From: Lytechinus pictus
Taxonomy: Eukaryota
Assembly (NCBI RefSeq): GCF_037042905.1
Contig: NC_087251.1
Span: 37,326,001 to 37,390,000, forward strand
Direction of reading: 5' to 3'
Length of the DNA stretch: 64,000 nt
Shown here: positions 3,401 through 33,400 of the stretch, one piece after another
How the letters are laid out: each line of letters starts with the position of its first letter
Numbering within the stretch: the stretch's first letter is position 1
Program-made: the position numbers and the translations under genes
The notes under the pieces: model-generated
Told to the model about the DNA's origin: nothing
The model's database searches: none
What the model saw: only the letters and a program-made list of their open reading frames with translations

Positions 3401-6400
3401 ATAAGAAATGTGTGGATGTAAAAACATCGCATTAAGTTCGGACTGGGCTAAGTTGAGCCAGCCAACATGGGGCAAGTTGAGCCATGGTAATTCTTATGGT
3501 AATGTATATATATAAAACAAGTGGAACGCCTCTGGCAGTCTCGCCTGCATTACGCAATTTGATGTAGCAGCAGTGCTGCCTCTAAAAACAGCTAATGAAT
3601 AATTATTCATAGAAGAAAACACTAATATGATAATAAAATATGTCCGTTCACCCAAAATTACCTTTGATCATGATCATGTGACCTAAGACATGTGAAAAAC
3701 ACTAAACAATCATTCATAATTGATTACCCTTATGTTGATGTTTCATGAGCTAGATCCATAAACTTTCTAAGTTATGATGCCTATTCAACACATTCTCCCA
3801 ACACGGCCGGAGGTCATTAACCTTTAAATAACCTTTGATCTTGGCCATGTTCCTGAACTGCGCAAAGGGTATTCAGGAATACATTGCTGCTCTTATGTCC
3901 AAGTTTCATGAACTACATCGATAAATTTTTAAAGTTATGATGACAATTCCACAAATACCCCCAACATTACCAAAGTTTGTTGACCCTAAATGACCTTTGA
4001 CCTTGGTCATATGACCTGAAACTCGCACAAGATGTTCAAGGATACTTAATTGCTCTTATGTCCATGTTTCATGAACTAGATCCATAAAATTTCAAAGTTA
4101 TAATGACAATTCCTCAAATACCCCTAACATGGCTAAAGTTCGTTGACCCCAAGTGACCTTTGACCTTGGTCATGTGACCTGAAACTCAGACATGATATTC
4201 AGGGATACATGGTTGCTCTTTTGTCCAAGTTTTATGAACTAGATCCATAAACTATGACAATTCCTCAAAAAACCCAATATGGCCAAAGTTTATTGACCCT
4301 AATTGACATTTGACCTTAATCATGTGACCTGAAACTCAGGCAGAATCTTCAGTAATACACTATTACCCTTATGTCCAAGTTTTATGAACTAGGTCTATAT
4401 ACTTTCAAAGTTATGACAACATTTCAAAAACTTAACCTTTGTTAAGATTTCAATATTGATTCCCCCAACATGGTCCAAGTTCATTGACCCTAAATGACCT
4501 TTGACCTTAGTCATGTGACCTGAAACTCAGGCAGGATGTTCAGTAATACTTGATTACCCTTATGTCCAAATTTCATGAACTAGGCCTATATACTTTCTAT
4601 TCTAAGTTATGATGACATTTCAAAAACTTAACCTTGGTTAAGATTTCAATGTTGACGACGCCACCATCGCCGTCGGAAAAGCGGCGCCTATAGTCTCGCT
4701 CTGCTATGCAGGCGAGACAAAAACCTTTAAAGGAGAATGAAACTCTTGGAGCAAGTTAGCTTTTGTGAAAGCAGAAAAATCAAAGAATTAGATCAACAAA
4801 ACTTTGAGTAAAATAGGACTAGCAATAAAAGAGTTATGAGCATTTGAATGTCGAGATCACTAATGCTATGGAGATCCTCCCATTGGCAATGCGACCAAGA
4901 TCTGTGATGTCACGCACGTACAACTCTCCCATTCGGACACTGAAAATATACCCCAAAACATATCTTTTTGCTCATTCTAATCATATGACAAACGATTCAT
5001 CAATGATATAATGTTGTGAAACCTCTGTACTTGTCATCTCATAAAGAAAACACCTAACCTTGTGATAGACTCTATAAAAGTGAGAATATAAGTGAAATAA
5101 GTACTAAAGTAATGAGGGAGTTGTACGTGTGTGATATCACAGATCTTGGTCGCATTGCCGATGGGAGGATCTACATGGCACTAGTGATCTCAATATTCAA
5201 ATGCTCATAACTTTCTTATTATTCATTCAATCTTCCTCAAACTTTCAACAATATGTTTCTTTGATTTTTCTCTTTGATATGGATTCAGCTAGTTTCAAGG
5301 GTTTCATTCTCCTTTAAAAGCCATCAATATGCAGGCAGAAAGGAACAAATTCACATGACAGTTCTTTTACTTTTAGAGGATAGAGAATTAGCAAGTGAAA
5401 GACTTTGAACAAAAAAATAACATGCTGGTTCTTCCCCCATACATTTTGTACATAATTTTTGTGGCTCAACTTACCCCAGAAAGTGGCTCAACTTACCCCA
5501 GAAAGTGGCTCAACTTACCCCACAGGTGGGGCAAGTTGAGCCATTTGACATTTTTTTCGAAGGTGACAATGACTTTCAGTGTGGAGGTAGAAAGTTATAT
5601 ATAGGTGAAAAATTTTCCAAGAATTAAATTTTAAGGCAAGGTACTTATTTCTACAAGATTATTCTTCATATCAATTCTACCATGCAAAAAGCAAAAAGTG
5701 TCACAACTTACCCCGCCTTCCCCTACCGTACATTGAAAATTACCAACACAGATACGTTAATAAGGGCACGTGTAAAATAATTATTTGCTTGGGGAAAAAG
5801 ACCTCAGCGTAATGCTACACATTCAGTTTGCTTATTTCTCTGGAATTACTCATTTTCGTCCAGAATCATTTGACATTTAATAATTGTAATATAATGCGAG
5901 TCCACCTTTCTTATCTGTTTATCAATATATAAGCACTTTTGTGGCTGGATGGTCGGTTAAATATATTTCTTTTTCATGAAAAGATAAGTTCATGTTGATA
6001 TCACATTATACAGCCATATTCATTTATCTATTATTTATTAAACAATATTTCAATAGGGTGCCCTTTCAGCAAAAGCTGGTATCAAAAGGGGCCCTAAAAG
6101 CATAAAAACAAAACATGTATATACAAGTGATAAAAATATACAAGGTAAAAACATTATATAAATCATACATATTAGAACACAGAAAGGCATGCAAAATTCG
6201 AGTCATTAAAATATATGTAACACAGGAACCATTGACATTTTAACATTTGCTGGACATTATATATGATTTGAGTTCTTTTTTAAAACTAGAGAGGGTGGAT
6301 AGGGTTTTTAAATGAAGGGGCAAGGAATTGAACATTGATATTGAGGAAATAATGAATGAGCATTTATAGTATTCAGTATTGCATTTTGGGACATCGAGTT

Positions 6401-9400
6401 GTAGATTGGAGGCAGATCTTGTATTTACGTTATGTTTTTTCGGATACTAATTTAAAGTTATCATCAAAATATTTAAACTCTTAAATATAAATATACATCG
6501 GAAATACATTACTCTTTGGGGATAGGAGAACCATTCAAGTTTTTTTAATAACTGATCAGACGGGGTGAGGACGTTATTATTCTGGCAGCACGTTTCTGAA
6601 GTTTTATTACTTGATTCGTTTGTGTGATAAATTATAAACCCCATACCTCACAACAATAGTCAATTTGACTTTGGATTAAACAGTTATAGATTAGTTTTGC
6701 AGTGGTAACATCAATGAATGGATTAGCCCTTTTAAGTATGGCAAGAGCAGCACATACTTTTTTACTAACGTGTTCTACATGATCATGCCAAGGAAGTTTA
6801 TCGTCTATTATGACACCTAAACACTTTATTTTTATAGTGGAGTGAACCTTCTTTATTACTTTACCATCAATTGTGATAGAAATATCTGAATCTGATTTAT
6901 TTTAATTGTTCATTCTTTGTCTTGACCCCAGTATCATCATATTTGTCTTTTCAACATTGAGAATTAACTTATTTAATTTTAACCATTGGTTTAAAGCATT
7001 TACATCTTCTTGTAAATCCAATTTCATACTATCTATATCGGATCCTGATAAAAATAATGTTGTGTCGTCGGCATACATTGTAACTTGACCATTCTTTATT
7101 ACATGAGGCAGGTCGTTCATTAGGACTAGAAAGAGTAGCGGACCTAATATGGATCCTTGTGGTACTCCGATAGACACACTTTCTTTCCCAGAAATAGATT
7201 TGTTATATTGAACACATTGCGATCTCATGTTTAGGTATGAGTTAAACCATCTTAGTGTTTTATCGGAACAGCCAATACACTGGAGCTTATTAAGCAGTAC
7301 ATTCGTGTTAACAGAGTCAAACGCACGTCTAAGATCGATAAAAACAGCGCACACAAGCTGACCATTGTCTATTGCTTTAGACCAGTAATCCGTCATTGAA
7401 GCTAAAGCGGCTGCGGTCGAGTGACCCGGTCGGAAACCAAATTGTACTTTCCTCAAGATTGACTTTTTGGTGAGGTAATGGTAGAATTGTTTAAGCTTGT
7501 AACCGATTTTGCAATCGGCAACCGATTCCATTCGATTTCACCACAATCGGCGATCACTTGCCGGTCTTCGATCATGCCCCTTGAAGGAAAAAATCGAAAA
7601 TAAAAAATCGGCGTAGATCTAGTAACAGTGCGTGATCGTTCAAAACATATTTCAAGATTGTTTTTGAGGTGCTAGCTAATTAGAGGTCGCATTATTCAGG
7701 GAGAAAGACGCGGTATTATCTATTCCGATCATTTTTAAGAGGATAGATATCTTCTCTTCCAACTCATGGTGATACTGATAGCGGATGCCGCCGTGAAATT
7801 TTTAAAGGTCGTATTACTGACGGAGATCACTGCACTACTCTCTCACATCGTTTATGATGATATACATCTTTTCAACCTCGTGGTGATAGCGGACCCCGCC
7901 GTGAACTTTTAAAGGTCGTATTATCGACGGACATCTCTGCGCTACTCTCTTAAATCGTTTATGATGATAGACATCTTCTCTTCAACCTCGTGGTGATAGC
8001 GGACCCCGCCATGAACTTTTAAAGATCGTACTATTGACGGAGCTCATTGCGTTACTCTTTTACATCGTTTATGATGATATACATTTTATTTTCAACCTCG
8101 TGGTGATAGCGGATGCCGCCGTGAACTTTGAAAGGTCGTATTACAGACGGAGCTCACTGCGCTACTCTCTTACCCCCTTTGTGATGATAGACATCTTCTC
8201 TTCAACCTCGTGGTGATAGCGGACCCCGCCGTGAACTTTTAAAGCTCATGCTACTGACGGAGCTCATTGCGTTACTCTCTTACATCGTTCATGATGATAT
8301 AAATCTTCTCTTCAACCTCGTGGTGATAGCGGACACCGCCATAAACTTTTAAAGATTGTACTAATGACGGAGCTCATTGCGTTACTCTCTTACATCGTTT
8401 ATGATGATATACATTTTATTTTCAACCTCGTGGTGATAGCGGATGCCGCCGTGAACTTTGAAAGGTCGTATTACCGACGGAGCTCACTGCGCTACTCTCT
8501 TACATTGTTCATGATGATATACATTATATTTTCAACCTCGTGGTGATAGCGGATGCCGCCGTGAACTTTGAAAGGTCGTATTAACGACGGAGCTCACTGC
8601 GCTACTCTCTTACCCCCTTTATGATGATAGACATCTTCTCTTTAACCTCGTGGTGATAGCGGACCCCGCCGTAAACTTTTAAAGCTCATGCTACTGACGG
8701 AGCTCATTGCGTTACTCTCTTACATCGTTCATGATGATATAAATCTTCTCTTCAACCTCGTGGTGATAGCGGACACCGCCATGAACTGTTAAAGATCGTA
8801 CTATTGACGGAACTCATTGCGTTACTCTCTTACATCGTTTATGATTATTACATCTTCTCAACCTCAATTTATTTGTCTTTGTAACTTCGTCGGGAGATGC
8901 TTTTTTTATATTTCTTCTTAGATATCAAAAGTTCAGTTCTCAAGATAGTAATAAATTGATTTGAAAACGCTAGCTACCCAAAACATTTTAATAACATTTC
9001 AAATCATCGTGCGTGCTTGCATCTTGTACTACATTTTAATTGCACTTGCGACTTTAAGATGATGCGTCGTACGAGATCAAGAGATCATTCCAATAATCCT
9101 AAATCGCTAGCACCTAAAAATAGTTATAAAAGATGTCCCGCCGATCATCGTTCATTAACCTGCGAGTGAACTATGAGAAATAATTTCATTTTATTTTCCT
9201 TTGCGCCTTTGCTCGGAAGATGCGTCTTTCGTTTATCTTTCTAATAAAAATCACTCGGTTTATTCTAAAGCAATAGCACCTCAAAACCCCTTTAAAACAT
9301 GTTCCAAACGATCGCGCATGTTGGCGACTTCCATTCCAATGCATTCGTCTTTGTGACTTTGTCAGGAAGATGCGAGCGACCGCGAACAAAATTTTGATGT

Positions 9401-15400: not shown

Positions 15401-18400
15401 GGATAAATATTTTTCATTCCATGTATTGTTTCTGCAACTTTTCATATAGAAAATAACAAAGAAAATACATAGTACATTACAAAATATTCAAGAATGAAAA
15501 AATATGAACATGTTTGTATTATCTATAACATAATGATTTAAGAAGGTTGAAGGGGTTGCCACTATAACCTAAGCTTGACTGTAAATGTGGCAACTCCGGA
15601 AAACAATTACAAATTACCTTTAATAATACTAGTACTACATGTATATCATGTTAAAGGAAGGAAACATTTTATATTTTTTTCAATTTCAATTCTGTTTATT
15701 ATATTAACACATTCTGAAGACAACTTTACAAAATATTATGAATATATAAAGCAAAAATAATTGCTGTTTAAAGGTTGTAATCAAACCTTAGGCAATTATA
15801 CTCCTAGGGAGAATTTATCATCAATCAAACTTTTTTTCAACTCCTTTCAGCATGTTCCAAACACAATGAGATTTACATTACAATTTATTAGGAATGAAAT
15901 ACTTGAAACATATAGCACATGTAAAAAAAAGAAGGTTACATCACAATGAACTCCTTGAATTTGAAAAGAATGAACTCACACCCAGGGAATAAGTTTGCTT
16001 CGAAATTTGATAATACCGAGTTCCCACTGTCACGATTTTAGCCACGACTGAAACGGTGGTCTTATTCATGGTGTAATCGTAGTGATTGTATCAGATCAGT
16101 TTTGGCAATCATATTGATCGTAGAAAAAAATTAATTGGTTGAAAAATTTTCCTGATCAGTTACAAAGGGTCAATCGTGGCATTCATAACGGATCGCACGA
16201 CAGTGGGGACGAGGTATGAGCATTTTTGGTCATTAGAGAAAAGTTCTTAAAAGGTGTCTGTACTGTACAGTCCTATGTAAAAATCTGCTACAAAAAGACT
16301 TTTATGTAGCAGCCTTCAAATAATGTGGACAAAATTATGATGCAATACCAGGAAAATTATTCCCTGCACACTATAGATCTTATCATAATACCTCATTCCC
16401 ATCGTCATGCGATCTGTTAGAATTGGCTGTTTGTAGCCGATCAACAAAATTTTTTAGCCATCCCAAATTGTTTTCTTCAATCAAAACAAATGCCACGACT
16501 GACCACAATATCTGATAAGATCTGCCACAAACACGACAATTACTCCACAATACTGGGCCCCGTCTTACAAAGAGTTATGATCGATCCATTCAATCGTAAC
16601 TCTATGGAAATCCATCAGTGTCATAATTTCTTCTTCTAAAATGTCCTTTGTAAACAAAGGAGAACACATCAAATTGTCAAGAAATCAATGAATTTATGGA
16701 TATACATTCATATCTATTTCTAGCTTATACACTCATTTGTACTATGTCGATTAGATGCTGGAAATGCTCTTCTTTTTAACATAACCTCACGCTATGTCAA
16801 TAAACTTCAGTATGCTCAGAATACAGCTGCCAGGGTTTTAACCGGTACATCAAAATATGAACACATTTCACCAATTCTCCAAAAGTTACATTGGTTGCCA
16901 ATCCGGAAGCGTATAGAATTAAAAATACTTCTTCTTACTTGGAAAGTGTCAAATGGTTTGGCACCAACATATCTACAAGACCTTGTCATGCCTTATACAC
17001 CAGCTCGTAGCCTAAGACCATCACACCAGCAACTTCTTAAGACTCCCAAGACATGTGTAGCATATGGTGCGCGAGCTTTCTCTGCCTCAGCACCTTCTCT
17101 CTGGAATAATTTGCCCATATATTTAAGAATAATACCATCGCTGGAGACCTTCAAATCTAAACTGAAGTCTTATCTTTTCTAACAGTATTAGTTATTGGCA
17201 CTTTGACACTCATCCAAACTTTCTTTCTTTCTTTTCTTGTGCGCCTCGGAATAGAATATTTCTAGATAGATGGCGCTATATAAATGCCTATTATTATTAT
17301 TATTATCTAGAATTTTTTTTGTACAAACATGCATTTTACATGTTGACGTTGCTAGCCGTCCATAGTTGCGATTGATCTGATCAATCGTAACTCTTTGTAA
17401 GACGGGATGGAAATCCATCAGTGTCATAAATTTTTCTACAGGAAATTTGCACAATGTCCTTTGTATGCAAAGAGAAGCACAGTAAATTAAAAAAAAACAG
17501 TTAATGCATGAATATACATCATAGCAAGAAAATATTTTGAAAAAGCATGCATAATACATGTTGACGTTGCTGGCCGTCCATAGTTGCGATTGATCGGATC
17601 AATCGCAAATCTTGGTAAGACGGGGCCCAGTTTCAATCGTGCTACAAATTATAGCAGTGGGTACTAGGTATAACAAATAAATAAAATGATTTTATAGAAA
17701 GAAATTTTGAACACTTAAAGTACATGACAGTGGTGATTTCAAGTCCAGTGCTGGTGTTGGAAGCACAATTTTGATTACGTTTCCCAGCACCAAAACCTAT
17801 CTGAGTTTACACAAATAATCCATATTGCAATATTGACAGCTCAACACCTAGTGAGTGGCTTTTCAGGGCCATCTACATTTTGTGTCTTGTGTTATAGTCA
17901 TGTAAAAATTGACCTAACACCAACACCACAAGGTCAACACTGAATTTGAAATCACCCAGTGATTTTACATCCTTATAACTGAAATACTTACTTCATCAAT
18001 CTGATCATTGGCCAGATAAAGCTGGGTAAGCTGCTGTGCCCCTAGACTGCCTCGGCTCATCACCCCTAGTCCCATCTGTACCAATACAAGTGGTCCTCTG
18101 CAACATGAAGTAAAGTAATTTATTAAGGCCTGTATTCTGAAATGCAATTCAACTCAGGTCATGGTCTTAAACTCAGTGCCAAAATTATGGAAAGCCAAAA
18201 ATGTCAACATTTTGTGAATATTGTATGTTTCTTTTGCTCACTTTGTTCTTTTGTCATGCAATCATGGCAAAGAAAAGCAATTCAGTTATTCTTCCAAGAC
18301 ATTTATAAATGATCTACATGTAAATGTGACCGCACACCTTACGACTGGTCTGTGACCCGATTTTAGAATAAAATGTAGTAGTATTTGATGCTAATATTAA

Positions 18401-21400
18401 GACTTGGAATATCTTACTGTGTAATGATCTAAATCATCATACGAATACCTATGATCAAATTTGTGACTATGCTATCATCCTTCTTAGAATAAAAGTGAAT
18501 TTGATATCTAGTCGTAATGACGTCATAGCAGTCGTACGATTGGCTACGATTTGACACTAATTTGGACTTTACTCCAAAATAAGGGCTTGCAATCTTTATA
18601 AAATGGTTATAATATTATTATTTCAATTAATTTTAACCTCAAATAAAATGATATGTTCCATTCAGATCTTCAAAAAATGAGCAAAATGCAATTTGTTCCA
18701 AAATCGGGTCGCAGACCAGTCGTAAGGTGTGCGGTCGCCTTAAGTGTCAGATGAGCTGATTATCATAGTCAAACCACAACTTTGGACAAGAGTTCAAATT
18801 AAACTGAGTTCAGAATACCTAGCATAGAGTATACATAATGATGACGTCACAATTTTATTTGTCTGCATTTCATCCTTTTTTTCGTCATATCTCGAAGGAG
18901 CATAATGAAAACCTCCAAAGACCAAACTTGGTAGGAATCAGTTCTAGCAGGGCCCCTGCTATGACCACATGGATATCTAATTAGCTTTACTGAAGTCAAT
19001 GTAAAATTGGCCTGGTTTTTATTGTGCAGTATTGAGTAGAGTGCCTCCAACACTCATGATACAAACACACAACTAGGAAATTGAATACAAACATTAGCCA
19101 GACTTAAATCTTTGTGAAACATCCTCATAGGATATTACACCAACTTGAAGGTTGAACCTTACAGCGGTGCTATGAAATTAGTGAACCCCACCAGAAAGTG
19201 CACTCCTTTATGCTGAGTGTTGAATGTAGACAGCAACCCTACAATGTCCAGCAGCCCATAGAAACAAACTATATTGAATGTAATATTATATCACCTGACT
19301 TCACAATTAAATATCTAAAAGATGGCAGAATTTGAACACTTTTAAGTATGTTCATTTTCTGGTAGGGAACACTAACTTTTTTCCACCACTGTTATATGGT
19401 AGGTAGATATGCAAGACAAATAGCTACATATTATTATTTGAAAGTCATACACGTTGACAGTTGAATACACATTACCTATTGAGAGTAATCAGCATGGAGT
19501 CCTGAGCATCAGGAATGCTGTCCCAGGAACACGATGAGGATGCCCATGACAGATCTACAATATGGCTCTCGAGTCTACAAAAGGAAAACAAAATGATAAT
19601 CATAGCAGACATAGTTTCATCATTCATTTAACAAGTAAAATTTGCCAAGATGGCTCTCAAGTCTACAAAAGGAAAACAAAATGATAACCAGCAAAGACAG
19701 AGCTTCATTATTCATTTAACAAAATGGAGATCCCCAAGACAGATCTAAAATATGGCTCTCTAGTCTACAAAAGGAAAACAAAATGATAATCATAGCAGAC
19801 ATAGTTTCATCATTCATTTAACAAGAAAAATTCGCCAAGATGGCTCTCAAGTCTACAAAAGGAAAACAAAATGATAACCAGCAAAGACAGAGCTTCATTA
19901 TTCATTTAACAAAATGGAGATTCCCAAGACAGATCTAAAATATGGCTCTCGAGTCTACAAAAGGAAAACAAAATGATAATCATAGCAGACATAGTTTAAT
20001 CATTCATTTAACAAGAAAAATTTGCCAAGATGGCTCTCAAGTCTACAAAAGGAAAACAAAATTATAATCAGCAAAGACAGAGCTTCATTATTCATTTAAC
20101 AAAATGGAGATCCCCAAGACAGATCTAAAATATGGCTCTCGAGTCTATAAAAGGAAAACAAAATGATAATCATAGCAGACAGAGTTTCATCATTCATTTA
20201 ACAAGTAAAATTTGCCAAGATGGCTCTCAAGTCTACAAAAGGAAAACAAAATGATAATCAGCAAAGACAGAGCTTCATTATTCATTTAACAAAATGGAGA
20301 TCCCCAAGACAGATCTAAAATATGGCTCTCGAGTCTATAAAAGGAAAACAAAATGATAATCATAGCAGACATAGTTTCATCATTCATTTAACAAGAAAAA
20401 TTTGCCAAGATGGCTCTCAAGTCTACAAAAGGAAAACAAAATTATAATCAGCAAAGACAGAGCTTCATTATTCATTTAACAAAATGGAGATCCCCAAGAC
20501 AGATCTAAAATATGGCTCTCGAGTCTATAAAAGGAAAACAAAATGATAATCATAGCAGACATAGTTTAATCATTCATTTAACAAGTAAAATTTGCCAAGA
20601 TGGCTCTCAAGTCTACAAAAGGAAAACAAAATGATAATCAGCAAAGACAGAGCTTCATTATTCATTTAACAAAATGGAGATCCCCAAGACAGATCTAAAA
20701 TATGGCTCTCGAGTCTACAAAAGGAAAACAAAATGATAATCATAGCAGACATAGTTTAATCATTCATTTAACAAGTAAAATTTGCCAAGATGGCTCTCAA
20801 GTCTACAAAAGGAAAACAAAATGATAATCAGCAAAGACATAGTTTAATCATTCATTTAACAAGTAAAATTTGCCAAGATGGCTCTCAAGTCTACAAAAGG
20901 AAAACAAAATGATAATCAGCAAAGACAGAGCTTCATTATTCATTTAACAAAATGGAGATCCCAAGACAGATCTAAAATATGGCTCTCGAGTCTATAAAAG
21001 GAAAACAAAATGATAATCATAGCAGACATAGTTTCATCATTCATTTAACAAGTAAAATTTGCCAAGATGGCTCTCGAGTCTACAAAAGGAAAACAAAATG
21101 ATAATCATAGCAGACATAGTTTAATCATTCATTTAACAAGTAAAATTTGCCAAGATGGCTCTCAAGTCTACAAAAGGAAAACAAGGCAAAAGCAATTTTG
21201 TGTCTCGCCCACTTATGAAAATAACCAGAAATATTGTGATTTGCGAGGGCACGCAACAGAATTATATCAAAACTTCATTGTGGAATGACTTGGATGGAAT
21301 TACACTTGTCATAAGAGCCTTGCACGTAAACTTTAATGTTGACCTGAAAATGACCTTTGACCTTACCATGTGACCTCCGACTGCAGCATAACATGGAGGT

Positions 21401-24400
21401 CACCTATTAAAGTACATCTACCATCCAAGTTTTGTTAAAAAGTGACTTACGGTTGCGGAGTTAAGTGTCATAAGAGAGTCTTGCATGTAAACTTTAACGT
21501 TGACCTGAAAATGACCTTTGACCTTACCATGTGACCTCCAACTGTAGCATAACATGCAGGTCCCCCAAGTCCATCTACCATCCAAGTTTGGTTGAAAAGT
21601 GACTTACGGTTGCGAAGTTAGGTGTCATAAGAGAGTCTTGCATGTAAACTTTAACGTTGACCTGAAAATGACCTTTGACCTTATTATGTGACCTCCAACT
21701 TCAGCATAACATGCAGGTCCCCCAAGTCCATCTACCATCCAAGTTTGGTTGAAAAGCGACTTACGGTTGCGGAGTTAGGTGTCAGAAGAGAGTCTTGCAT
21801 GTAAACTTTAACGTTGACCTGCATGTAAACTTTAACGTTGACCTGAAAATGACCTTTGACCTTACCATGTGACCTTCGACTGCAGCAAAGCATGCAGGTC
21901 CCCCAAGTCCATCTACAATCAAGTTTGGTTGAAAAGCGACTTACAGTTGTGGAGTTATGTGTCATTAGGTTTGTGACGGACAGACGACGGACGACATTTG
22001 GATCCCTAAGTCTCGCCTTCACCTCTGGTGGGCGAGACAACAAAATGATAATCAGCAAAGACAGAGCTTCATTATTCATTTAACAAGATGGAGATCCCCA
22101 AGACAGATCTACAAGATGGCTCTCAAGTCTACAAAAGGAAAACAAAATGATGATCACAGACTTTCATTGTTGATACATAACAATAATAATAATAGTTGGT
22201 ATTTCTATAGTGCCTTTGCCATGAGATACAGTTGGGCTTTGAGATGCCATCCCTGGTCAGCTTAATAGATAAAATAGATACAACTTACAAGGCAATGACA
22301 GTCAATGTATATGTGATTACGATATTAGAATAGGTAGATCTTCCAAATTAAATCGAAGTGATCCAAGCCTGGGTGCAGTAGAGAAGAAAGCTGCATCCCA
22401 GCAAATTTGAAGGTGTATGGTAGAGTAAAGGTCAATGACAATGGAAGACAATTAATGCCATTTTAAACATACATCCCAGAAAAAACAAAAAAGAAATTAT
22501 CAATGCTTTATCTTAACTTAATCACAAATGTTAAGACCGTGTCAGCATATACCACGTTGTCACAATAACCACAAAGGAGGCGTATTCTAAAATTAGCTTC
22601 CTTTTAATACTTGGAAGTATCTCAGTAGCGGTGCTAGCTTGTAGCATATATTCAACAACTGTGTGTGAATCCTTCAGTTTTGTATTAAAAAACGAAGAAA
22701 ACTCGGGATCGACCAAGGTCGATGTACCTTCGAACGGTCTTGTTTTAGCTGTGACCTTGCTTTGACCTTGAAGGGTAATTAGTCTAAACTCAAGTACATG
22801 CAAAAAAACCAAACATTTCAAAAGGCAACAATATCTGAATATCAAAACTATGTCATTCTATGACATCCCAACCCCCTAAGCGTGACGGAATGTCACAAAT
22901 ACAACAATCAATTCTTGCGTTAAAACTTTGATAAAAAAGGTTCATTAAAATATAATTGTCCAATGTCCATCTTTTCATCTTTGGCATTTTGAATCATTAG
23001 GAGCAATTTGTCCAATGTCTTCATAATTGTCCTGTAATTAATATCATCGTTCTCAAAGTCTAAATGTCTGAACGTTCCTCTCGCTTCATCAGAGATACAA
23101 GTTTAGTGATGGGTCTGTTTGCACATGTGCCGTCTGCAAACTTCACTTCAACAATTCTTACCAGTCCATCTTGTCCAGGTTTGGTGTCTACTACTTCGGC
23201 CATCTTCCAAGACCCACGTCTTTTGTCATCACCGATGACAAGGACAATATCGTTCTTCTCTAAGTTCTCTGCAGAATGTTGCCACTTCTGACGTGGCGTC
23301 AACTTGTGGATGTAGCCAAGCCATCTATGCCAAAACCCGTCCACCATTTTATTGCAAAGTTCTCTACGTTTGCGTGGATCTCCTTTGTAGTCTTCACAAG
23401 GGATGTCTGGACAGGTCAATTCCCCTCTACCAATAAGAAAATGATTGGGGGTAATTGGAGGATGGTCCATGGGTGAGGAAGACATCGCAGTCAGGGGGCG
23501 GCTATTGATGAGACCTGAGATCCTGCAGAAGATGGTCTCCCATTCCACAAAGGTTAGACGATCCGCCTTCACAAGATGCCGCATAGCTTTCTTTACTTCC
23601 TGGACCATGCGCTCAACCGCTCCTTGGTGGTGAGGTCCTCCTGGTGGTCCGAACTTCCACTCGATTTTGAAACGTTGACAGTGCTCACGGACCTGTGTTT
23701 GGTTGAGTTTAAGATTCAGTTCATTGATTGTATTGTCAGCCCCTCGGAAACAAGTGGCATTGTCACTAACCATCATGGCAGGTGCTCCTCTAACACTGAC
23801 AAACCTTTCCAAGGCTTGAAGGAAAGCCTGAGTTGAGAGGTCCTGGACAACAGTCAAGTGGACAGCCCTGGTAACTGCACATGTGAATAAAGCACAGTAT
23901 CCTTTGGTCGTGGTATTACGATTCAGTTTCACCATTACTGGGCCTAGATAGTCTACCAAGGTGGTCTTGAAGGGTGGAGAACAAGGGCTGATCCGGAACT
24001 CTGGTAAATCGGCCATTCTCTGGTGTGCCGGTCTTCCTCTATATTGTCTGCAAGGGATGCAACAACGAACAACACGTCGTGCGATGTTCATGTCGCCTAC
24101 TATCCAATACCTCTTCCTGACCTCATTCGCAGTCCGCAAATGACCACCATGAAGGGCATGTAGATGTCTATCACGTACAAGGAGGAAGCTAATGTGGCTA
24201 TTCTTTGGCAGAAGATAAGGATGGCGAACATCATACGACAAAGGGGCCCTACCAAGACGTCCGCCAACACGATACACCTGTTGGTCCTCATCAAAGAATG
24301 GACTGAGTTTCTGTATATTGGGATCTTGGAAATCTATCCCTTTCTGTGCTTGCCTGACCCAATATAGCTCTGCTTCCTTGATCATTCTTTGGGATGGCCA

Positions 24401-27400
24401 TTCAGAGATCTGCCGGATGAGTTGCTTCAGCCATTGATTCCGTGGAAGCTCCTTGAGGGATAACACCCTGGCCGTGACCATCTGGAGTCTAGACCAACTA
24501 GAGAATTTGGTTGCATCAACAATCGGAGAATTCTTGGACACAGCATTCACAGATAATGCGAAAGTCTTGCTGTTTCGGGAGTGAAATTTCTTCCGTTCAG
24601 GATCTCCTGGTTTGACGGGAATGTTTTCAGGTGTCTTCGGCCATGATTGAGGAGGTAATCTCAAGAATCCTGGTCCATCAATGACCTCCTGCATGTCTGT
24701 GACATCGCCTCCTCTAGAAATGAGATCAGCTGCATTTTCATCTGTGGGAACGTAGGCGATATCACTGTAGGGGTCAAATTCAGAAGTGATCTCACCAACT
24801 CGATGGGCAACATATGAGCGGAAGGTTTTCGATTGCCCTCTTAGCCAACTTATCACCGTCATGCTGTCTGTCCATATCTTCCATCCTTCTATGTTGAGGC
24901 GTAGAGCACTTCGGATGGTGTACATCAATCTGGATAGAAGGAGAAGAGCTTGTAACTCCTTCCGAGGCATACTTGTTTGCTTTAGTGGCGTCACCCTAGA
25001 CCTGGCACAGACAAAGGATAAATGAGCTTGTTGACTGTCAGTATGGGACCATCTCAGCCAAACTGCGAAACCCATAGCGTCCTCCGATGCATCGCTAAAA
25101 CCATGCATATATGCTGTAGGTAGAGGTCTCTTTCCCCTGTAAGGCTCCGGTATCAGACATCTTGGAATCTCAATGCCATCCATTTTGTCAAGGTCTCTGT
25201 TAATCTTACTCATCATGGCATACAATTCACTGCTTTTGTCAATAGGGGAGTCCCAGTCAAGGTCTATTTGCCATAACATTTGAAGAAGAATCTTGGGGCG
25301 TACCAACAGACCAGAAAGCATTCCAAAAACATCGTAATAGGATGCCGTTTGAGCAAGAATCTTCCGTTTGGTCAGGGTAGTATCGTCAGAGGGTTTGACC
25401 TTCTTCACGCTCAGTGTATCCTTAGATAGATCCCAACTGGTTCCAAGAACTGTAGCAGTTTCAGTGTTTTCTGTCTCGTCACATACCTTTTTCACATTAG
25501 ATTGCCACTTCCTTATGTTGAAGTTTCCCTTCTTCAGCGTGTCCGTCAATTTAGACTTCAGCTCCAGAGCTTCCTCAGTGGTCCTGACTGACTCGTTCAG
25601 GTCGTCCATATAGAATTGCTCCGTGATTACTGTCTGTAGTTTGTCATCATCCGGTGCATGTTCGCTAGCCACATGTCTGAGAGTGACTATTGCTGCAGTA
25701 GGGGAGGGCTTGTCCCCAAATGTAACGGTCCTCAGTTCATAGACTTGCATTGGGTAATTTGGATTTTCTCTAAACACAAATCTGTGGAATCTAGCATCAT
25801 CTGGGGGAATCTTGATCGCCTGGAACATCTTCGAAATGTCAGCGATCACGCCCACTTCATTTTCACGAAACCGGAGGGCTACCTCAAACAAATTTGAGTT
25901 GACGTTCTCTCCTTTGATAAGATAATCATTCAGGGAATGTCCTTGAAATTTCGCCTTACCGTCATATACGACTCGGACTGGAGTAGTTTTTGAGTCTTTG
26001 ACAACTGCGAAGTGTGGAAGGAACCACATCTTGTTCCCTGTTTCCCTGTCTTGTTGCAACTCATCCTGCGTCACCAGCCGAGAGACACCCCTTTCCAGTT
26101 GATCCTTCATTTGCCGACAGTAGACCTCCCATTCCTTTGGGCGATTTCTGAACTGGTTCTCAAGGCTCTTCTGTCTCTTTACAGCGTACTCATAGTTATC
26201 TGGTAACCCTTCTGGAGATCGCTTCCAGGGTAAGCGGATCTCATAAGAACCATCTGGTAGTTGATTGACACTCTTCATCATGGATTCAGTAGCTCCTTTC
26301 TCATCATCAGAAATGCACTTGCATTTCCTGGGTTCCAAGCCAGCCGTCTCGAGTCCAATGAACTCCTCTAGGGATCCTGAAGCGACCACGTTAACGTAGT
26401 TAAGAAGTGGTGCTGTGTTAGAGGGACCTCCTTGAATAAACCAACCTAGGGGACATCTTACCGCAACTGGTTCATCGGGTCTGCCTCCTCTGATATATTC
26501 CTCCCAGACCATAAGGTGAGTATTGTCCACTCCAAGTAATAGATCAATTACTGGTGATGAGGCTTCATCAATATTTACACCTGTCAGGTGGTCATAGGAT
26601 TTCAGCTGCTCAGGAGTAATGACAGGTATATCTCCACAGGGTTTCTCGATCTCAATGGCTCTCAAGGGATATGAACAATTTCCTTGGCTATCCTCGATTT
26701 CACATTCCAGGATCCTCAGCTTGCGTTTGATGATGCTTCCACCTACAAGGCTCAGGTCATGGTCCTGGTAACAGTCGCCATCAATTCTGGAAAAGATTCC
26801 TGTTCTTACGAGGGTGGCCTGACTACCCCCATCTATCAGGATGCGTACAGGGTGTCGTTTGTTACCACATCGCAGAAAACCCATCACAGTTGGTAAGGTA
26901 GCCTGCAGTTTCCCTACTTCTGTGCTTGTAGAAGATTGAACTGAGCTGTTGGAATGCATGGGTCTCACAATGTCTTCTTGATTAGCACTGACTCTTCGAC
27001 TCTGATCTCTGGCATCATCATGGGCTTTGGTACAAATGGCGGGAAAGTGCTCATCACTACCACACATCTGGACTCGACATGGTGACCTGAACTGGCACTT
27101 ACTGTGGTCATAAGGTGGCTTGCCTGAGATACAGTTATTATGGCCACACCTGAAGCAGATGTTGTTAGACTTCATCACATCAAATTTCTCCTTTAGCGCA
27201 AGAGACCTGAATTTATTGCATGTTTTCAGATAATGAGATGAGGTCTTTGGGTGCAGAGGGCACTTTGGGATGTGTGCAGTTGATGTATCCTCCCTCGACA
27301 TGGCTGCGTTGAAGGACTTTGAAACTCTCTTTGTAGGTTCCAAGCTTTCAGATGTAGTAGATTTTGATTTCTCAATTAGGATGTGCTGTTGATATAGCCA

Positions 27401-30400
27401 TTTGCTGAGTCCTGAGAGGGAATCATCAGTATTGTCATCGCGAACACTTTTGTAATACAGAATCCTATGTTCCTCTGGGAGCTTCAACTTGATTTGGCTC
27501 AGCATAATCCTGCTATTCATCTCACCTGCTAAACCAATCGTCTCTGCTTGGCATTCAAAATTCTGAAGAACCTGGATGAAGTTTGCCATTGCAGGAAGAT
27601 TAACCTTTCCTTTACTCTCATATGGCTTGAGACTATCCAAATCCTGTAGCAGTCTGTCAACTACTCGGTCTTTGTCATCAAAGCGTTGGTCTAGCATCTC
27701 CCATGCTCTTGCTACACTCGAACAGCTTTTGACCAAGTTTCTTTCCTTCTGAGACATCATTGATTCTGACAACTGGAAGAAACATTCAATCTCCGACAGT
27801 TCCTTCGTACAATGTTGGAACATTTCCTTGAATCTCTGATATTCCCTGATATCTCCATTGAATGTTGGGAATTTAAGTCTCGCCATCCTGGGAGCACAGG
27901 CACCTGCAGATTGATTCCGAGAGGTAGGAGCAGGAGAGCTTGGAGGAGTAGTTGACTGTTGATTGGATGCTTGGTTGATTGATGATGGCGACAGCTGTTT
28001 GCTGAGGATTTTCCTACCATCATTAATCTTCTGGACAAAGTCTGCCTCACAGTTGACCATCCAGGTTTCCTCTGCTTCAAATTCAACGTCGTTCTCTATT
28101 ACCTGTACAAGCTCTGCGTGCGTCTCTTCTACCCTTGCGAATTGTTCCTCGGCCTTGTCGATGTACTGCTTGAGGAGACTAGTATCTGCAGAGTCATTGG
28201 AGAGGTTGACAATAGCTGTTAATGTCCTCGTCAATTGTCCCTTCAGATTGCGCCTCGAAACCTTTAGAGCCTTTGTGTCAGCCATCTTGCGTTGATAATA
28301 TACAGCAAAGTTGTTGAAGAACTGTTAAGACCGTGTCAGCATATACCACGTTGTCACAATAACCACAAAGGAGGCGTATTCTAAAATTAGCTTCCTTTTA
28401 ATACTTGGAAGTATCTCAGTAGCGGTGCTAGCTTGTAGCATATATTCAACAACTGTGTGTGAATCCTTCAGTTTTGTATTAAAAAACGAAGAAAACTCGG
28501 GATCGACCAAGGTCGATGTACCTTCGAACGGTCTTGTTTTAGCTGTGACCTTGCTTTGACCTTGAAGGGTAATTAGTCTAAACTCAAGTACATGCAAAAA
28601 AACCAAACATTTCAAAAGGCAACAATATCTGAATATCAAAACTATGTCATTCTATGACAACAAATATTTACATTTTGGCATCCTTTCTTCAAATTGCTTT
28701 TACTATTTCATGATTGAATTATATTTCATGTGACTTGCACCAGATGAAAGATAAGACTGTTAGCTCTACAATAATATGCCATTTGTTAATCATATTTGTG
28801 ATTTCTCGATCACGAATTATTGATAATTCTCAGGTACCGGTAAGTACTTTTCATGAATGCAGTGCATATTTCCTCACCTGAAATGAGTTGTTAAGGATAG
28901 AACTGGTTTGGGTTCAAGCTGCTCGGACATTGAGTAGAAGAAGAGTGTATTCAGAGCCATGTCAAAACACTGCAGGTCAAAGGTTATTATATACAAGAGT
29001 CAAATATCAAGACTTTAAAAATAGGTTAGTCTACACAGATACATTAATACAATATAGGACCTTGAGATTTCATCAATTTTATTCATGTCACTTATGTTTG
29101 TACTTATAAACAAAAGGAATCAAGTAAACAAAAGCAGTTTTTACATATCCATGAATTATCAAATAGCACATATGAAGATAAGTAAGCAATTCTTGTAACC
29201 CACTACAGTCTAGCCAGCAGTCTAGATTCCCAGGCGTTAATTCCATTTTGTTTTATTTTTTAAATTTCTTTTATTTTCATTTTTTGGGGGGTCTACCTCT
29301 TTTCTGTTTAAGCTTTCAAAGTTAACAGTGAGTAGGAAAATTCACACTAATTGTCATCCTTCCTGCATAAGTATTTGTGCGAAAACTTGCCCTATTGTTA
29401 TGTAGTATGTATTTAACTTCCTCTTATCCTTTCAGTCATTCACCTTCGCTTGTTTACAAACTCCCCCAATGTCATCTAAGAATCCCCAAACCCCCAAGAC
29501 CATTTAACTCCTAAACCTTGACCATAAAGACCAACCCTCAGTGACGTCAGCTAACTTCAAGGAAGAAGTATGACTCACACTTCCAGCCCCAGTCACTTGC
29601 ACAGAGCATCACCACACCCCTTATACCAGAGAAAGTTTGATAGGCAGTTACCTGTAGACCAATCAGATCAAGTTTAGATCACTCCCACCTTAAATTGTTA
29701 CACCCCCAAAACTAATGATATAAATAAGACTTCTTGATTATTGGAGAGATAGAATACAACGATAGAATACTAGACCAACACTCATCCATAGAGACTGACT
29801 GACTTCAAGACTTAGACGTCCATCGAATATTAACTTAACTCCATAATCTCAATCTGATACTTCTAAATTATTTTATATTCATCGTCTCCTATTATATCTG
29901 AATATTCATGTACTTCGAACTGTAGCTGAATATTGATGATTAAATACTTTGTGACTTTGAACTGTATAACTTTCTCCAAAGTTTCCTCATTACCCTTCCC
30001 TTCTAAATTATAATTACCGATCCCAACACGACACTATTAGCACAAGAAAAGTAAAATGCTGAATCAAAAATCAAATTCATTTTGTCTCTGTGAAAATTAA
30101 ATGCTGGAAAGACGACAAGCACCAGCGAGATGAACCCCCGGCTCAACACAGCCAATGCAGTTACAGTAAACTATGGCCACCAATGATGCCAAGCTTCTGA
30201 CATTCAATGCATAAGGCACAAGAGATTTAATATCACTTAAGTTCGCATGCTTTCGGAATGCTCTATTGTCTTGCTAATCCCCATAACGAATGGGTTCGTA
30301 GTGCCCCCTGCATACATCCGAATGCGAGGATTACTGTTAACAAAGAAGTCAATAGAAAGCGCTGAAGTACTCTGTTCAGGATACCACTGAACGCAAGGAT

Positions 30401-33400
30401 TACTATTAACAAAGGAGTCAATAGAATGCGCTTAAGTATTCCGTTCAGAACGGAGAATGGTTCTGCTCAGCTAGAAACAGCTACAGCCAGGTCCAGGGGG
30501 ATTTTCCCCAAGTGATCAATGTGACGAAAAAAAAAGCAGTTTGCCGATGTATGGATTTGAGATTCATTGCCGATCGTTTGGCGATCATTTTAAGAAACAT
30601 CCCGAGTCAAAACTTTCTGCATTTTAATTTTGACGGACGTATTTCTCCATTTTTATTAAAAGGTGATCAATAACAGATGTCTTGCGCTCATGATAAGAAA
30701 TTTCCCGTGTATGAAGGGATGTCCAAACTTTGCGCTTTTTTATTTTGGCGGACGATATATATATTTTTTTTTCAGTTATATTGAAAGTCAATAAATTTGA
30801 CATTCGTTACAAATCGTCTAACAATAATTTAAAGGCATTTCTCGAGTCAGAAGGGATGTTCAAACTTTGCGCTTTTTGATTTTGACGAACGTATTTCATT
30901 TAATTAAAAGTTAATCGTCAGAGAACTTAACGATGTCGGCGCTATCTCTTCGACATCGGATCAGGCGCGGAGGTCGTCCGCTAGTTCATTCTTGACATTT
31001 TTCTTCCTGTGGTCATGCTTTATTTCATACCCTGACATCGTTTACATGATCGTTAAATAGGTTCTGACGTCAGAGAACTTCACGATGTTGGCGCTATCTC
31101 TACGACATCCGATCAGGTGCGGAGGTCGTCCGCTATTTTATCCTTGACATTTTTCTTCCCGTGGTAATCATTTATTTCACACCCTTACATCGTTTACATG
31201 ATCACAAAATAGGTTCGATTGGCGCTATCTCTCCGAAATCAGGCGCAGAAGTCGCTATCTCCCCCCTCTCTATATATATATCTTTCTCTTGTTCTATCTC
31301 TCCAACTATTGACTTTCCTCCCACTCTCCTATTCTCAAACTCATCCTTTTATTAAATTCCAGTTTAGAATACTTAACTCAAAGATGATCGTCAATGTTTC
31401 GAGATGGACATAATCATATCAATATAATTCACCTCCCGGGTTCACTTTTAGTAATTATTTTATCTTCCAATAACATCAAATATTTGCTTCATTTTTTATC
31501 CACTCCGCCATAAAATGAATATTGACCTAAAAGGTATTAAATTGTTATTTGATACTTCTAACGATTTTTAACCTATACCTTTAGAAATTATTTATTCTCA
31601 CACAGAGCACACCGAGGCTCAATGATTGTTTTCTATTGCGCAATCCACAACTGGGGGGGGGGTCAATAGATGGAGAGAAAAGAGCGAGAGAGATGGGGGG
31701 GGGGCTTTGAGGTTGTTTTCTACAGTATACTTCAGTTTTAAACATTTATTTCATATCGGGTAGCATCAAAGTTTAGACATCCCTTCTGACTAGAGAAATG
31801 TCGCAAAATAACCTCTAAACAATAATAATGTACGTTTAATCTTGCAGTAAACTTTGCTCTTTTAAATTCTTGACACTTAAAAACTTTAACAATACCATAC
31901 TGCTAAAGGCGATTTTCCCCCCTTTTTTTTAACAAGTGCACAAACCTTTTTACCAAGAATGCGTATAGCTTTTTCATTTATTTGAATGCAGGATAAAAGA
32001 ACACAGCGGATTAAATGCCTTGCTCACGGGCATAGGTGCCGCGGCCGGGGATTGAACCCCGGAGTGATTCTTAAGGTATGAATGACATCAAAGTGTATAT
32101 TATTGTTTGAGCGAACGTAAATCTCCTTTGACGCGGATTCGGGTCAGAATTGTTTGGGTATTAACGGAACTTCTAATCCAGTGGGTAGAGGGGGGGGGGG
32201 TCGAATATATTTGAGGATGATAAATCACAATAATGACAAGTATACAATCATGAGAATAACGAGGGAGTAGGAAATAATGATCAATCATTTATATATTGGC
32301 ATATAATTGTGACCAATGTTTCCTTGTGATTTTCATAATTATGATCGTTATTGAATGAAACCATTTCCCACAAAACCCCTAAAATTCGACATTGCTGTAT
32401 TGATAAATTCTTACTCCGACATCAGAGGCTTATATCTTTTAACGATATTAGAGCTTATTATGTAATTTGCATTATGAAATTATAATCATTATCTTCCAAC
32501 CAAATATGAGTCTTGCTTTTTCTCGATCCGACACGGCATAAAAAATGAAGGTTTAACAGTATAGGATATTCAATTCAAAGATGATTGTCACCGAGCATAA
32601 TTCTGAATAATTAAAGGAGGAAATAATCATATTGATATAATTGCGTGATTTACTATCTATCCTCCCACAATATACACATATCTCTTCTTCTTGATGCTTC
32701 TCGATATGAAATAAAGTTTTAAAACTGAAGTATAGAATATCGGCCTCAAAGCCACCCCCCCCCCCCTTCCCCAAAATCGTCAAGCTCTCTGACGTCAGAA
32801 CCTATTTTATGATCATGTAAAAGATGTCAGGGTATGAAATAAAAAATGATCACGGGAAGAAAAACATCAAGGATAAAATAAGCGGACGACCTCCGCGTCT
32901 GATCTGATGTCGGAGAGATTGCGCCGACATCGTTAAGTTGTCTGACGTCAGAACCTATTTTATGATCACGTAAACGATGTCAGGGTATGAAATAAAGGAT
33001 GACCAAGGGAAGAAAAATATCAAGGATAAACTAGCGGACGACCTCCGCACCAGTCTGATGTGGGATAGATAGCATTGACATCGTTTAGTTGTCTGACGTC
33101 AGAACCTATTTTATGATCATGTAAACGAAACGATGTCAGGGTATGAAATAAAGAATGACCACGGGAAGAAAAACATCAAGGATAAACTAGCGGACGACCT
33201 CCGCGCCTGATCTGATATCGGAGAGATAGCGCCGACATTGTTAAGTTGTCGGACGTTAAAACCTTTTTTATGATCAAGTAAACGATGTCAGGGTATGAAA
33301 TAAATGATGACCACGGGAAGAAAAATATGAAGGATAATAGTCAAGTCAATATAGGGTTTGACCCACCACTAATTGCAACACGAGATATTCCACTGAAATG

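What the first reader, a model, noticed from the sequence alone, without database searches (positions are those of the whole stretch)
19476..22160. Tandem array that multiplies a WDPCP 3' splice site about 18 times
Seen in sequence: the 190-bp unit (88 + 102 bp) is built from the polypyrimidine tract and AG (ttttgttttccttttgtag) plus the start of exon 19476-19574. Extra acceptor copies have their AG at about 19663, 19765, 19853, 19955, 20043, 20145, 20233, 20335, 20423, 20525, 20613, 20715, 20803, 20891, 20992, 21080, 21168 and 22129. The functional exon is the last copy in transcription order. The 102-bp subunits carry ~15 exon codons and then TAA, and I see no strong donor in them. Inference: the spliceosome must skip ~18 near-identical upstream acceptors, a natural test of exon definition. 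Use of the decoys would give poison/NMD isoforms, and copy number could tune WDPCP dosage.
Basis: partly seen in the sequence, partly recalled or inferred. Interest (0 to 1): 0.7.

Follow-up and report, generated by a model that had tools for sequence, protein, structure and literature searches.

The report
Splice-acceptor "mirage" repeat in urchin WDPCP
An intron of a sea urchin cilia gene carries 18 extra tandem copies of the next exon's splice signal and first few codons, a kind of repeat already known from lancelets as a "mirage", and the main mRNA seen still uses the last, genuine copy, so it is most likely a tolerated by-product of DNA duplication.

Summary
Observation confirmed: all 18 extra acceptor AGs are at the stated positions, upstream of a 99-nt exon of Lytechinus pictus WDPCP/fritz (minus strand). 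Copies score like the real acceptor, and every one leads to an in-frame stop within 49 nt. In 4 of 4 RNA contig sets (2 studies) the spliced contig enters at the last copy; 3 of 4 show no array sequence, and one (X1) shows array sequence whose origin (pre-mRNA, DNA or decoy use) contigs cannot resolve. The structure matches published amphioxus "mirage" minisatellites (BflGb6: intron 3' end plus exon start, splicing unaffected) and mirrors the human F7 donor VNTR. This scan has already noted many such arrays, including about eight findings in this genome and two in annelids. Added here: the 22129 copy is unit 1 of the same array, cut off by a HINE-like insertion that supplies it with donors; the 102-bp units are exon/old-copy chimeras, pointing to unequal exchange; copies keep a proline codon seen in outgroup urchins. 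Poison isoforms and dosage tuning remain untested. New member of a known kind; low-moderate interest.

The parts
19476..19574 (-). Working WDPCP coding exon (99 nt), last copy in transcription order; acceptor AG 19576-19575, donor TAG|GTAATG
   Evidence: Exon chain reproduces XP_054758060.2; spliced contigs with 0 mismatches in 4 of 4 runs
19575..21167 (-). Contiguous mirage array: ten 88-bp and seven 101/102-bp units, each exon-start fragment + about 55 nt of intron end + AG
   Evidence: 9 of 10 and 5 of 7 units distinct, mean pairwise differences 3.0 and 1.8 nt
21168..21179 (-). 3' remnant of the pyrimidine tract and AG of the second acceptor, split from its 5' part by the insertion
   Evidence: sequence at both element ends compared with sister units
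21180..22038 (-). HINE-like non-autonomous element (ends good to a few bases) inserted at TT in the pyrimidine tract; 157-bp internal repeats; carries GT donors at 22023, 21945, 21866, 21528, 21367
   Evidence: terminal inverted arms and 157-bp repeats; features compared with PMC7492417; donor scores
22039..22185 (-). First and most diverged unit of the array: original upstream intron end, AG at 22130-22129, 46 nt of exon homology ending in TAA
22529..28659 (-). BEL/Pao LTR retrotransposon in the same intron: two identical 337-nt LTRs (28659-28323, 22865-22529), 5-bp target duplication, one 1754-codon frame; context, not part of the array
   Evidence: Pfam Peptidase_A17, DUF5641, DUF1759, RVT_1, Integrase_H2C2
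28878..28969 (-). Upstream WDPCP exon (92 nt) whose donor CAG|GTGAGG opens the 9303-nt intron
17992..18097 (-). Downstream WDPCP exon (106 nt)
   Evidence: Pfam Frtz; joint 18097-19476 in 4 of 4 runs

Best explanation
A 'mirage' minisatellite that the spliceosome tolerates. History (inferred): an old tandem duplication of about 102 bp (about 55 nt of intron end + 46 nt of exon) left a partial copy upstream of the exon; an 88-bp derivative arose; unequal exchange or slippage inside the shared acceptor-plus-exon-start then multiplied the units, and by construction always leaves the one complete exon last; a HINE-like element later split the first unit off. Splicing: the dominant mRNA enters at the last copy (shown). 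The likely reason (inferred) is exon definition: only the last acceptor sits 99 nt from a good donor across complete exon sequence; the decoys face either no donor or a 187 to over 2600-nt, AU-rich, stop-containing exon. Any leak would be cleared by NMD (inferred). No function is needed to explain it.
For: Shown: joint 18097-19476 in 4 of 4 RNA contig sets; the exon piece stops at 19576 and the contig goes on into other sequence, 1320 and 1344 nt of it in X2 and X4, which fits 1193 nt of upstream coding sequence plus a 5' UTR; depth in the boundary bin equals the spliced contig alone in X6, X2, X4 (9.55, 5.49, 2.45 observed; 9.55, 5.48, 2.46 expected) and is 0 over the three array bins. No donor above 3.4 bits inside the array. 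GC of the 99 nt after the AG is 0.32-0.34 for 17 decoys, 0.40 for 22129, 0.48 for the real exon. Chimeric units: all 7 internal 102-type copies have the real exon's base at +14 while the three compared codon by codon carry the 22129 copy's bases at +28, +37, +38, +43. Boundary echoes are not enriched in this gene: 2 of 38 exon edges against 11 of 300 random intronic AGs. Published class with the same anatomy and normal splicing (PMC3087553 section 16; PMC3902484 passage).
Against: Run X1 holds 0.51 of the sampled words of exon plus array against 0.10 in the other 7 listed runs and has summed contig depth of about 15-50 over array bins against 67 for the spliced contig; that share fits low-level pre-mRNA or DNA over the whole array, but equally an exon extended to the 19853 decoy (0.49 expected). 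Contigs drop rare variants, so leak is not excluded. The decoys are not ordinary background: only 8 of 3340 other intronic AGs reach the real site's score. Real exons of this gene range from 0.33 to 0.54 GC, so composition alone is not decisive, and folding shows no masking of decoys. The exon-definition step itself was not tested.
Confidence: 0.8

Rival explanations
1. Leaky array: the nearest decoys (19663, 19765, 19853) share the real donor, or the 22129 acceptor pairs with donors in the inserted element, often enough to divert a measurable share of transcripts to NMD; mildly deleterious, not regulated.
For: X1 array signal and a word share close to the value expected for extension to 19853. 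Decoys score as well as the real site, and six of them have a better branch-point-like word (CTGAT at -26) than the real site. That word is changed to CTGGT ahead of exactly the two nearest 88-type decoys, 19853 and 19663: a post hoc hint of selection, probably one event, with other candidate branch words left intact. 22129 has donors at 184 and 263 nt.
Against: No array depth in 3 of 4 runs; the X1 mRNA contig is unbroken across the junction. The two letters before the exon in all four contigs fit a donor exon ending in AG, which excludes the 21945 and 21866 pseudo-exons as the dominant partner.
Confidence: 0.13
2. Regulatory device: array length sets the share of unproductive splicing and tunes WDPCP dose, and is kept by selection.
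For: All 18 copies keep AG and all lead to a stop; WDPCP is needed for ciliogenesis (PMC10824913 passages).
Against: Intact AGs and stops are shared by descent among units that differ by 2-3 nt, so they count as two or three observations, not 18. The intron collects other recent insertions. No sign of conservation, regulation or length-linked expression was found; the mouse phenotypes cited are for homozygotes.
Confidence: 0.03
3. Assembly artefact, or a copy number inflated by the assembler.
For: No whole-genome DNA run was listed, so length could not be checked; 7 of 8 listed runs hold only the exon's share of words.
Against: Units are heterogeneous and patterned (9 of 10 and 5 of 7 distinct), with an element inserted inside one unit; X1 independently holds array words and a unit variant known from the array (19636).
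Confidence: 0.04

Closest known systems
Amphioxus 'mirage' minisatellites (Adh3; globins BflGb6 and BflGb9; troponin C; PGBD5): Ebner et al. 2010, PMC3087553 (passages and section 16 read); PMC3902484 (one passage read); the original Adh3 paper was not read
   Same: BflGb6 has tandem copies of an intron's 3' end plus the 5' part of the next exon, many with intact AG, 81-100% identical, boundary copies excluded from homogenisation, with regular splicing by RT-PCR.
   Different: Echinoderm host; 18 extra copies against 3-6 in BflGb6; two unit types forming a higher-order 190-bp dimer; split by a mobile element that supplies donors. Length polymorphism, shown in amphioxus, was not testable here.
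Human F7 intron 7 37-bp VNTR (Borensztajn et al. 2006, PMC1557585; abstract and Discussion read)
   Same: Identical splice sites multiplied by a minisatellite whose terminal unit spans the junction; only the copy next to the complete exon is used, though the pseudo-sites are functional when tested.
   Different: Donor side, 5-9 sites, and dissected with 50 constructs; here acceptor side, where simple 5'-to-3' scanning would pick the wrong copy, and no experiments exist.
Variable internal tandem repeats at exon-intron boundaries of human duplicated genes (De Grassi and Ciccarelli 2009, PMC2812944; passages read)
   Same: Tandem repeats at junctions can activate cryptic sites and create alternative forms.
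   Different: There the repeats are often exonic or yield new introns with transcript support; here no decoy use is shown and every use would truncate the protein.

Membership tests
Mirage minisatellite (as described in PMC3087553) | Head-to-tail copies that span an intron-exon boundary of the host gene | tested here: met
   Each unit holds the acceptor and 17-46 nt of the exon start
Mirage minisatellite (as described in PMC3087553) | Minisatellite-sized units (10-160 bp in the published cases) | tested here: met
   88 and 101/102 bp; higher-order period 190
Mirage minisatellite (as described in PMC3087553) | Many copies keep the splice signal | tested here: met
   18 of 18 keep AG; 9.0-9.6 bits against 9.6 for the real site
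Mirage minisatellite (as described in PMC3087553) | Regular splicing of the main mRNA is undisturbed | tested here: met
   Dominant spliced contig uses the last copy in 4 of 4 runs; rare forms cannot be seen in contigs
Mirage minisatellite (as described in PMC3087553) | Concerted evolution inside the cluster, boundary copies excluded | tested here: met
   Internal units differ by 1.8-3.0 nt on average; the first copy differs from the exon at 7 of 46 nt
Mirage minisatellite (as described in PMC3087553) | Length instability between haplotypes or in soma | not testable with these tools
   No genomic DNA run listed; no genome held
Regulated poison exon (AS-NMD) | Inclusion creates a stop more than 50-55 nt upstream of a junction (rule recalled from vertebrates) | tested here: met
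   Stop 40-49 nt after each decoy, at least 144 nt before the exon end
Regulated poison exon (AS-NMD) | The alternative junction is actually used, and regulated or conserved | tested here: inconclusive
   No decoy junction seen; X1 array signal unassigned; loose-end table cut
HINE (non-autonomous Helentron), for 21180-22038 | 5' subTIR with hairpin partner, GTCY microsatellite, about 160-bp central repeats, 3' subTIR and palindrome, TT insertion without target duplication (PMC7492417 passages) | tested here: met
   Seen in sequence and compared; the empty site is inferred from sister units; no autonomous partner was sought

The most novel reading that the evidence does not exclude
In some animals or conditions (as perhaps in run X1) the nearest decoys, or the element-completed 22129 pseudo-exon, take a sizeable share of WDPCP splicing, and array length and branch-point changes set that share. 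The locus would then be a natural allelic series for 3' splice-site choice among identical sites, and a case where a mirage affects gene output, which the published cases did not show.
Probability: 0.1. Interest if true: 0.62.

Novelty: new member of a known kind. Interest (0 to 1): 0.27.

Why it matters
As one more mirage it matters little alone: the class is published and this scan has noted it repeatedly in the same genome. It is a clean acceptor-side counterpart of the F7 donor VNTR in a tractable laboratory urchin: 18 equally strong acceptors are passed over in a 9.3-kb intron, which argues for exon definition over first-AG scanning and is easy to test by RT-PCR or minigene. The readable history (old seed, chimeric units, element insertion) bears on the open question, stated in PMC3087553, of how mirages arise. 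My searches of the held library found no echinoderm case in print; that library lacks most subscription papers.

Tried and rejected
No genome is held for the window, so no genome-wide count of mirages and no second haplotype. The run search listed 8 runs from 2 studies, all contigs, none on record as RNA or as genomic DNA; 'no RNA holder listed' is no evidence; the four laid (of 8) proved spliced by their joint. Parts of the array without cover in X6, X2 and X4 do not prove absence of array RNA or of the array in those animals. Only 17900-19790 was laid (one 88 and one 102 unit), so the 28878 junction was inferred from contig positions, not seen as a joint; multi-copy intronic elements crowded the tables, and 867 loose ends and 4495 pieces were not shown, so loose ends at 19662 and 19764 could not be read. 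Structural masking of decoys: rejected, mean unpaired probability 0.45-0.65 against 0.58 for the real site. Stops as a sign of selection: rejected, shared by descent. Enrichment of echoes at exon edges in this gene: not found. A date for the split of the two Lytechinus species: search listing only, none taken. WDPCP dosage sensitivity: search gave nothing specific. The splice-site models rest on 18-19 sites of one gene and are crude. Supplements of PMC3087553 (BflGb6 alignments) were not opened; they may bear on how closely unit structure matches.
Full report
Host gene. The window is animal DNA of about 35% GC with one 41-46% GC block. Exon-sized frames on the minus strand hit Pfam Frtz, PF11768 (5 of 21 pieces scanned). 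One exon found a 100% identical WDPCP/fritz protein named Lytechinus pictus; its cluster holds XP_054758060.2 (P0013), which matches the window's exons residue for residue. A chain of 19 AG/GT-bounded exons from 63058 to 407 was derived. The exon in question is 19574-19476; the intron before it is 28877-19575, 9303 nt.

Observation. The contiguous array has ten 88-bp and seven 101/102-bp units; 9 of 10 and 5 of 7 are distinct, with mean pairwise differences of 3.0 and 1.8 nt. The 22129 copy is not a stray: it is unit 1, and an 860-bp element with inverted ends, a GTCY microsatellite and 157-bp internal repeats sits inside the pyrimidine tract of acceptor 21168. These features match the HINE description in PMC7492417 (passages). 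Most of the remaining intron is a BEL/Pao retrotransposon with identical 337-nt LTRs and a 5-bp target duplication, hence recent.

History (inferred from sequence). The first copy differs from the working exon at 7 of 46 nt, 4 of them silent third positions. It encodes Pro-Ser-Cys where the working exon, the other L. pictus model (one further change) and the 774-aa Lytechinus record P0014 (L. variegatus by my recall of the accession series) have Ser at the first place; three other echinoid proteins (S. purpuratus cluster P0017, unnamed P0003, Diadema P0005) have Pro. So the seed duplication may predate a change shared by both Lytechinus records; this rests on one base, and a back-change is perhaps 5-10% likely by my rough count. 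The internal 102-type units carry the real exon's bases up to +14 and the first copy's bases from +28 on, which is what unequal exchange between the real exon start and a partial copy produces; such exchange makes the 88+102 dimer and always leaves the complete exon last.

Splice signals. In a model trained on the gene's 18 other acceptors the decoys score 9.0-9.6 bits, the real site 9.6, the leave-one-out median 8.3; only 8 of 3340 other intronic AGs in 60.5 kb reach 9.6. The decoys are therefore strong, not background. What they lack is a partner: the best GT in the array scores 3.4 (median real donor 6.9, lowest 0.8). Pairing with the real donor gives exons of 187, 289, 377 and up to 2653 nt, AU-rich (GC 0.32-0.34 against 0.48), each with a stop 40-49 nt in. 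Local folding does not hide the decoys.

RNA. The run search with exon plus array listed 8 runs of one organism in 2 studies, all contigs; 7 hold 0.10 of the words (the exon's expected share is 0.11) and X1 holds 0.51. Four were laid on 17900-19790. All four have a contig with the joint 18097-19476, GT-AG on the minus strand, no mismatches, depth 67, 47, 27 and 12; the exon piece ends at 19576 and the contig continues into sequence not on the stretch. In X2 and X4 that upstream part is 1320 and 1344 nt, fitting 1193 nt of coding sequence plus a 5' UTR. In X6, X2 and X4 the boundary bin is fully explained by that contig and the three array bins are empty. X1 is the exception: summed depth 53, 51, 15 and 3 over the four bins, with a unit variant (19636) found in 3 of the 10 assembled 88-bp units and one (19621) in none of them. 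A share of 0.51 fits about 0.6-0.7-fold cover per copy of unspliced RNA or DNA, and also an exon extended to the 19853 decoy (0.49). Contigs give no strand or level and drop rare paths, so this stays open; it does show that array sequence exists outside the assembly, unless X1 is its source.

Comparison. Ebner et al. 2010 (PMC3087553; passages and section 16) describe in amphioxus BflGb6 tandem copies of an intron's 3' end plus the next exon's 5' part, named mirages after the Adh3 case, with intact AG/GT in many units, regular splicing, length differences between haplotypes and unhomogenised boundary copies. PMC3902484 (one passage) adds troponin C and PGBD5. The human F7 VNTR is the donor-side equivalent, where pseudo-sites are functional but unused (PMC1557585, abstract and Discussion); that Discussion also notes that classical duplicated-site experiments gave conflicting results. 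Five of six mirage features were met here; length instability was not testable. Searches found no echinoderm case. Earlier notes of this scan gave me the term and both papers and list about eight similar findings in this genome; I checked the papers, not those loci.

Is it more than a by-product? In this gene 2 of 38 exon edges have a 16-nt or longer echo across the junction within 600 nt, against 11 of 300 random intronic AGs: no enrichment, in a small sample. Nothing found points to conservation or regulation. WDPCP matters for cilia (PMC10824913 passages), so heavy leak would be costly, which fits a tolerated, nearly silent array.

Verdict. Real, well above chance, a new member of a known kind. 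Shown: anatomy, host exon, dominant use of the last copy. Inferred: origin by unequal exchange, exon definition as the reason, NMD of any leak. Open: the X1 signal, polymorphism, and any effect on dose. Interest 0.27; the leaky-array reading has about 0.1 probability and would merit about 0.6.

Noticed in passing
window 60670-60770 (- strand): A second, decayed single-copy echo: the acceptor and first 11-15 nt of exon 60669-60492 are repeated 67 nt upstream (16-nt exact word across the junction). The echo scores 3.3 bits against -0.1 for the real acceptor; use would shift the frame or hit a stop.
   Followed up: partly
window 22529-28659 (- strand): Recent BEL/Pao LTR retrotransposon, identical LTRs, one uninterrupted 1754-codon frame, in sense orientation inside the same WDPCP intron; it makes up about two thirds of that intron.
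   Followed up: partly
window 13570 and 407-470; proteins P0013, P0001, P0014: Both L. pictus RefSeq models (558 and 573 aa) end by reading through a donor, whereas the related record has 774 aa; exon 470-407 is intact and RNA contigs of 4587 and 3556 nt run far past this region, so the truncation is probably an annotation error.
   Followed up: partly
window 3729-4527 and 43318-43516: Other pieces related to the HINE-like element's internal repeat (163-bp array at 3729-4416; short BLAST hits at 4141-4527 and 43318-43516).
   Followed up: no
window 7776-8859, 30916-31216, 32776-33337, 37571-37913, 44581-45397, 46749-47063: Further intronic tandem arrays (periods 110, 152, 153, 125, 417, 53) unrelated to exon edges; the gene's introns are rich in minisatellites.
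   Followed up: no
window 6902-7537 (- strand): Reverse transcriptase fragment (Pfam RVT_1, 211 aa) of a LINE-like element in the 13-kb intron.
   Followed up: no
window 17900-17960, 18200-18800, 19100-19400: Short intronic elements with very high summed depth (thousands to tens of thousands) in all four RNA contig sets: multi-copy elements present in many other transcripts.
   Followed up: no
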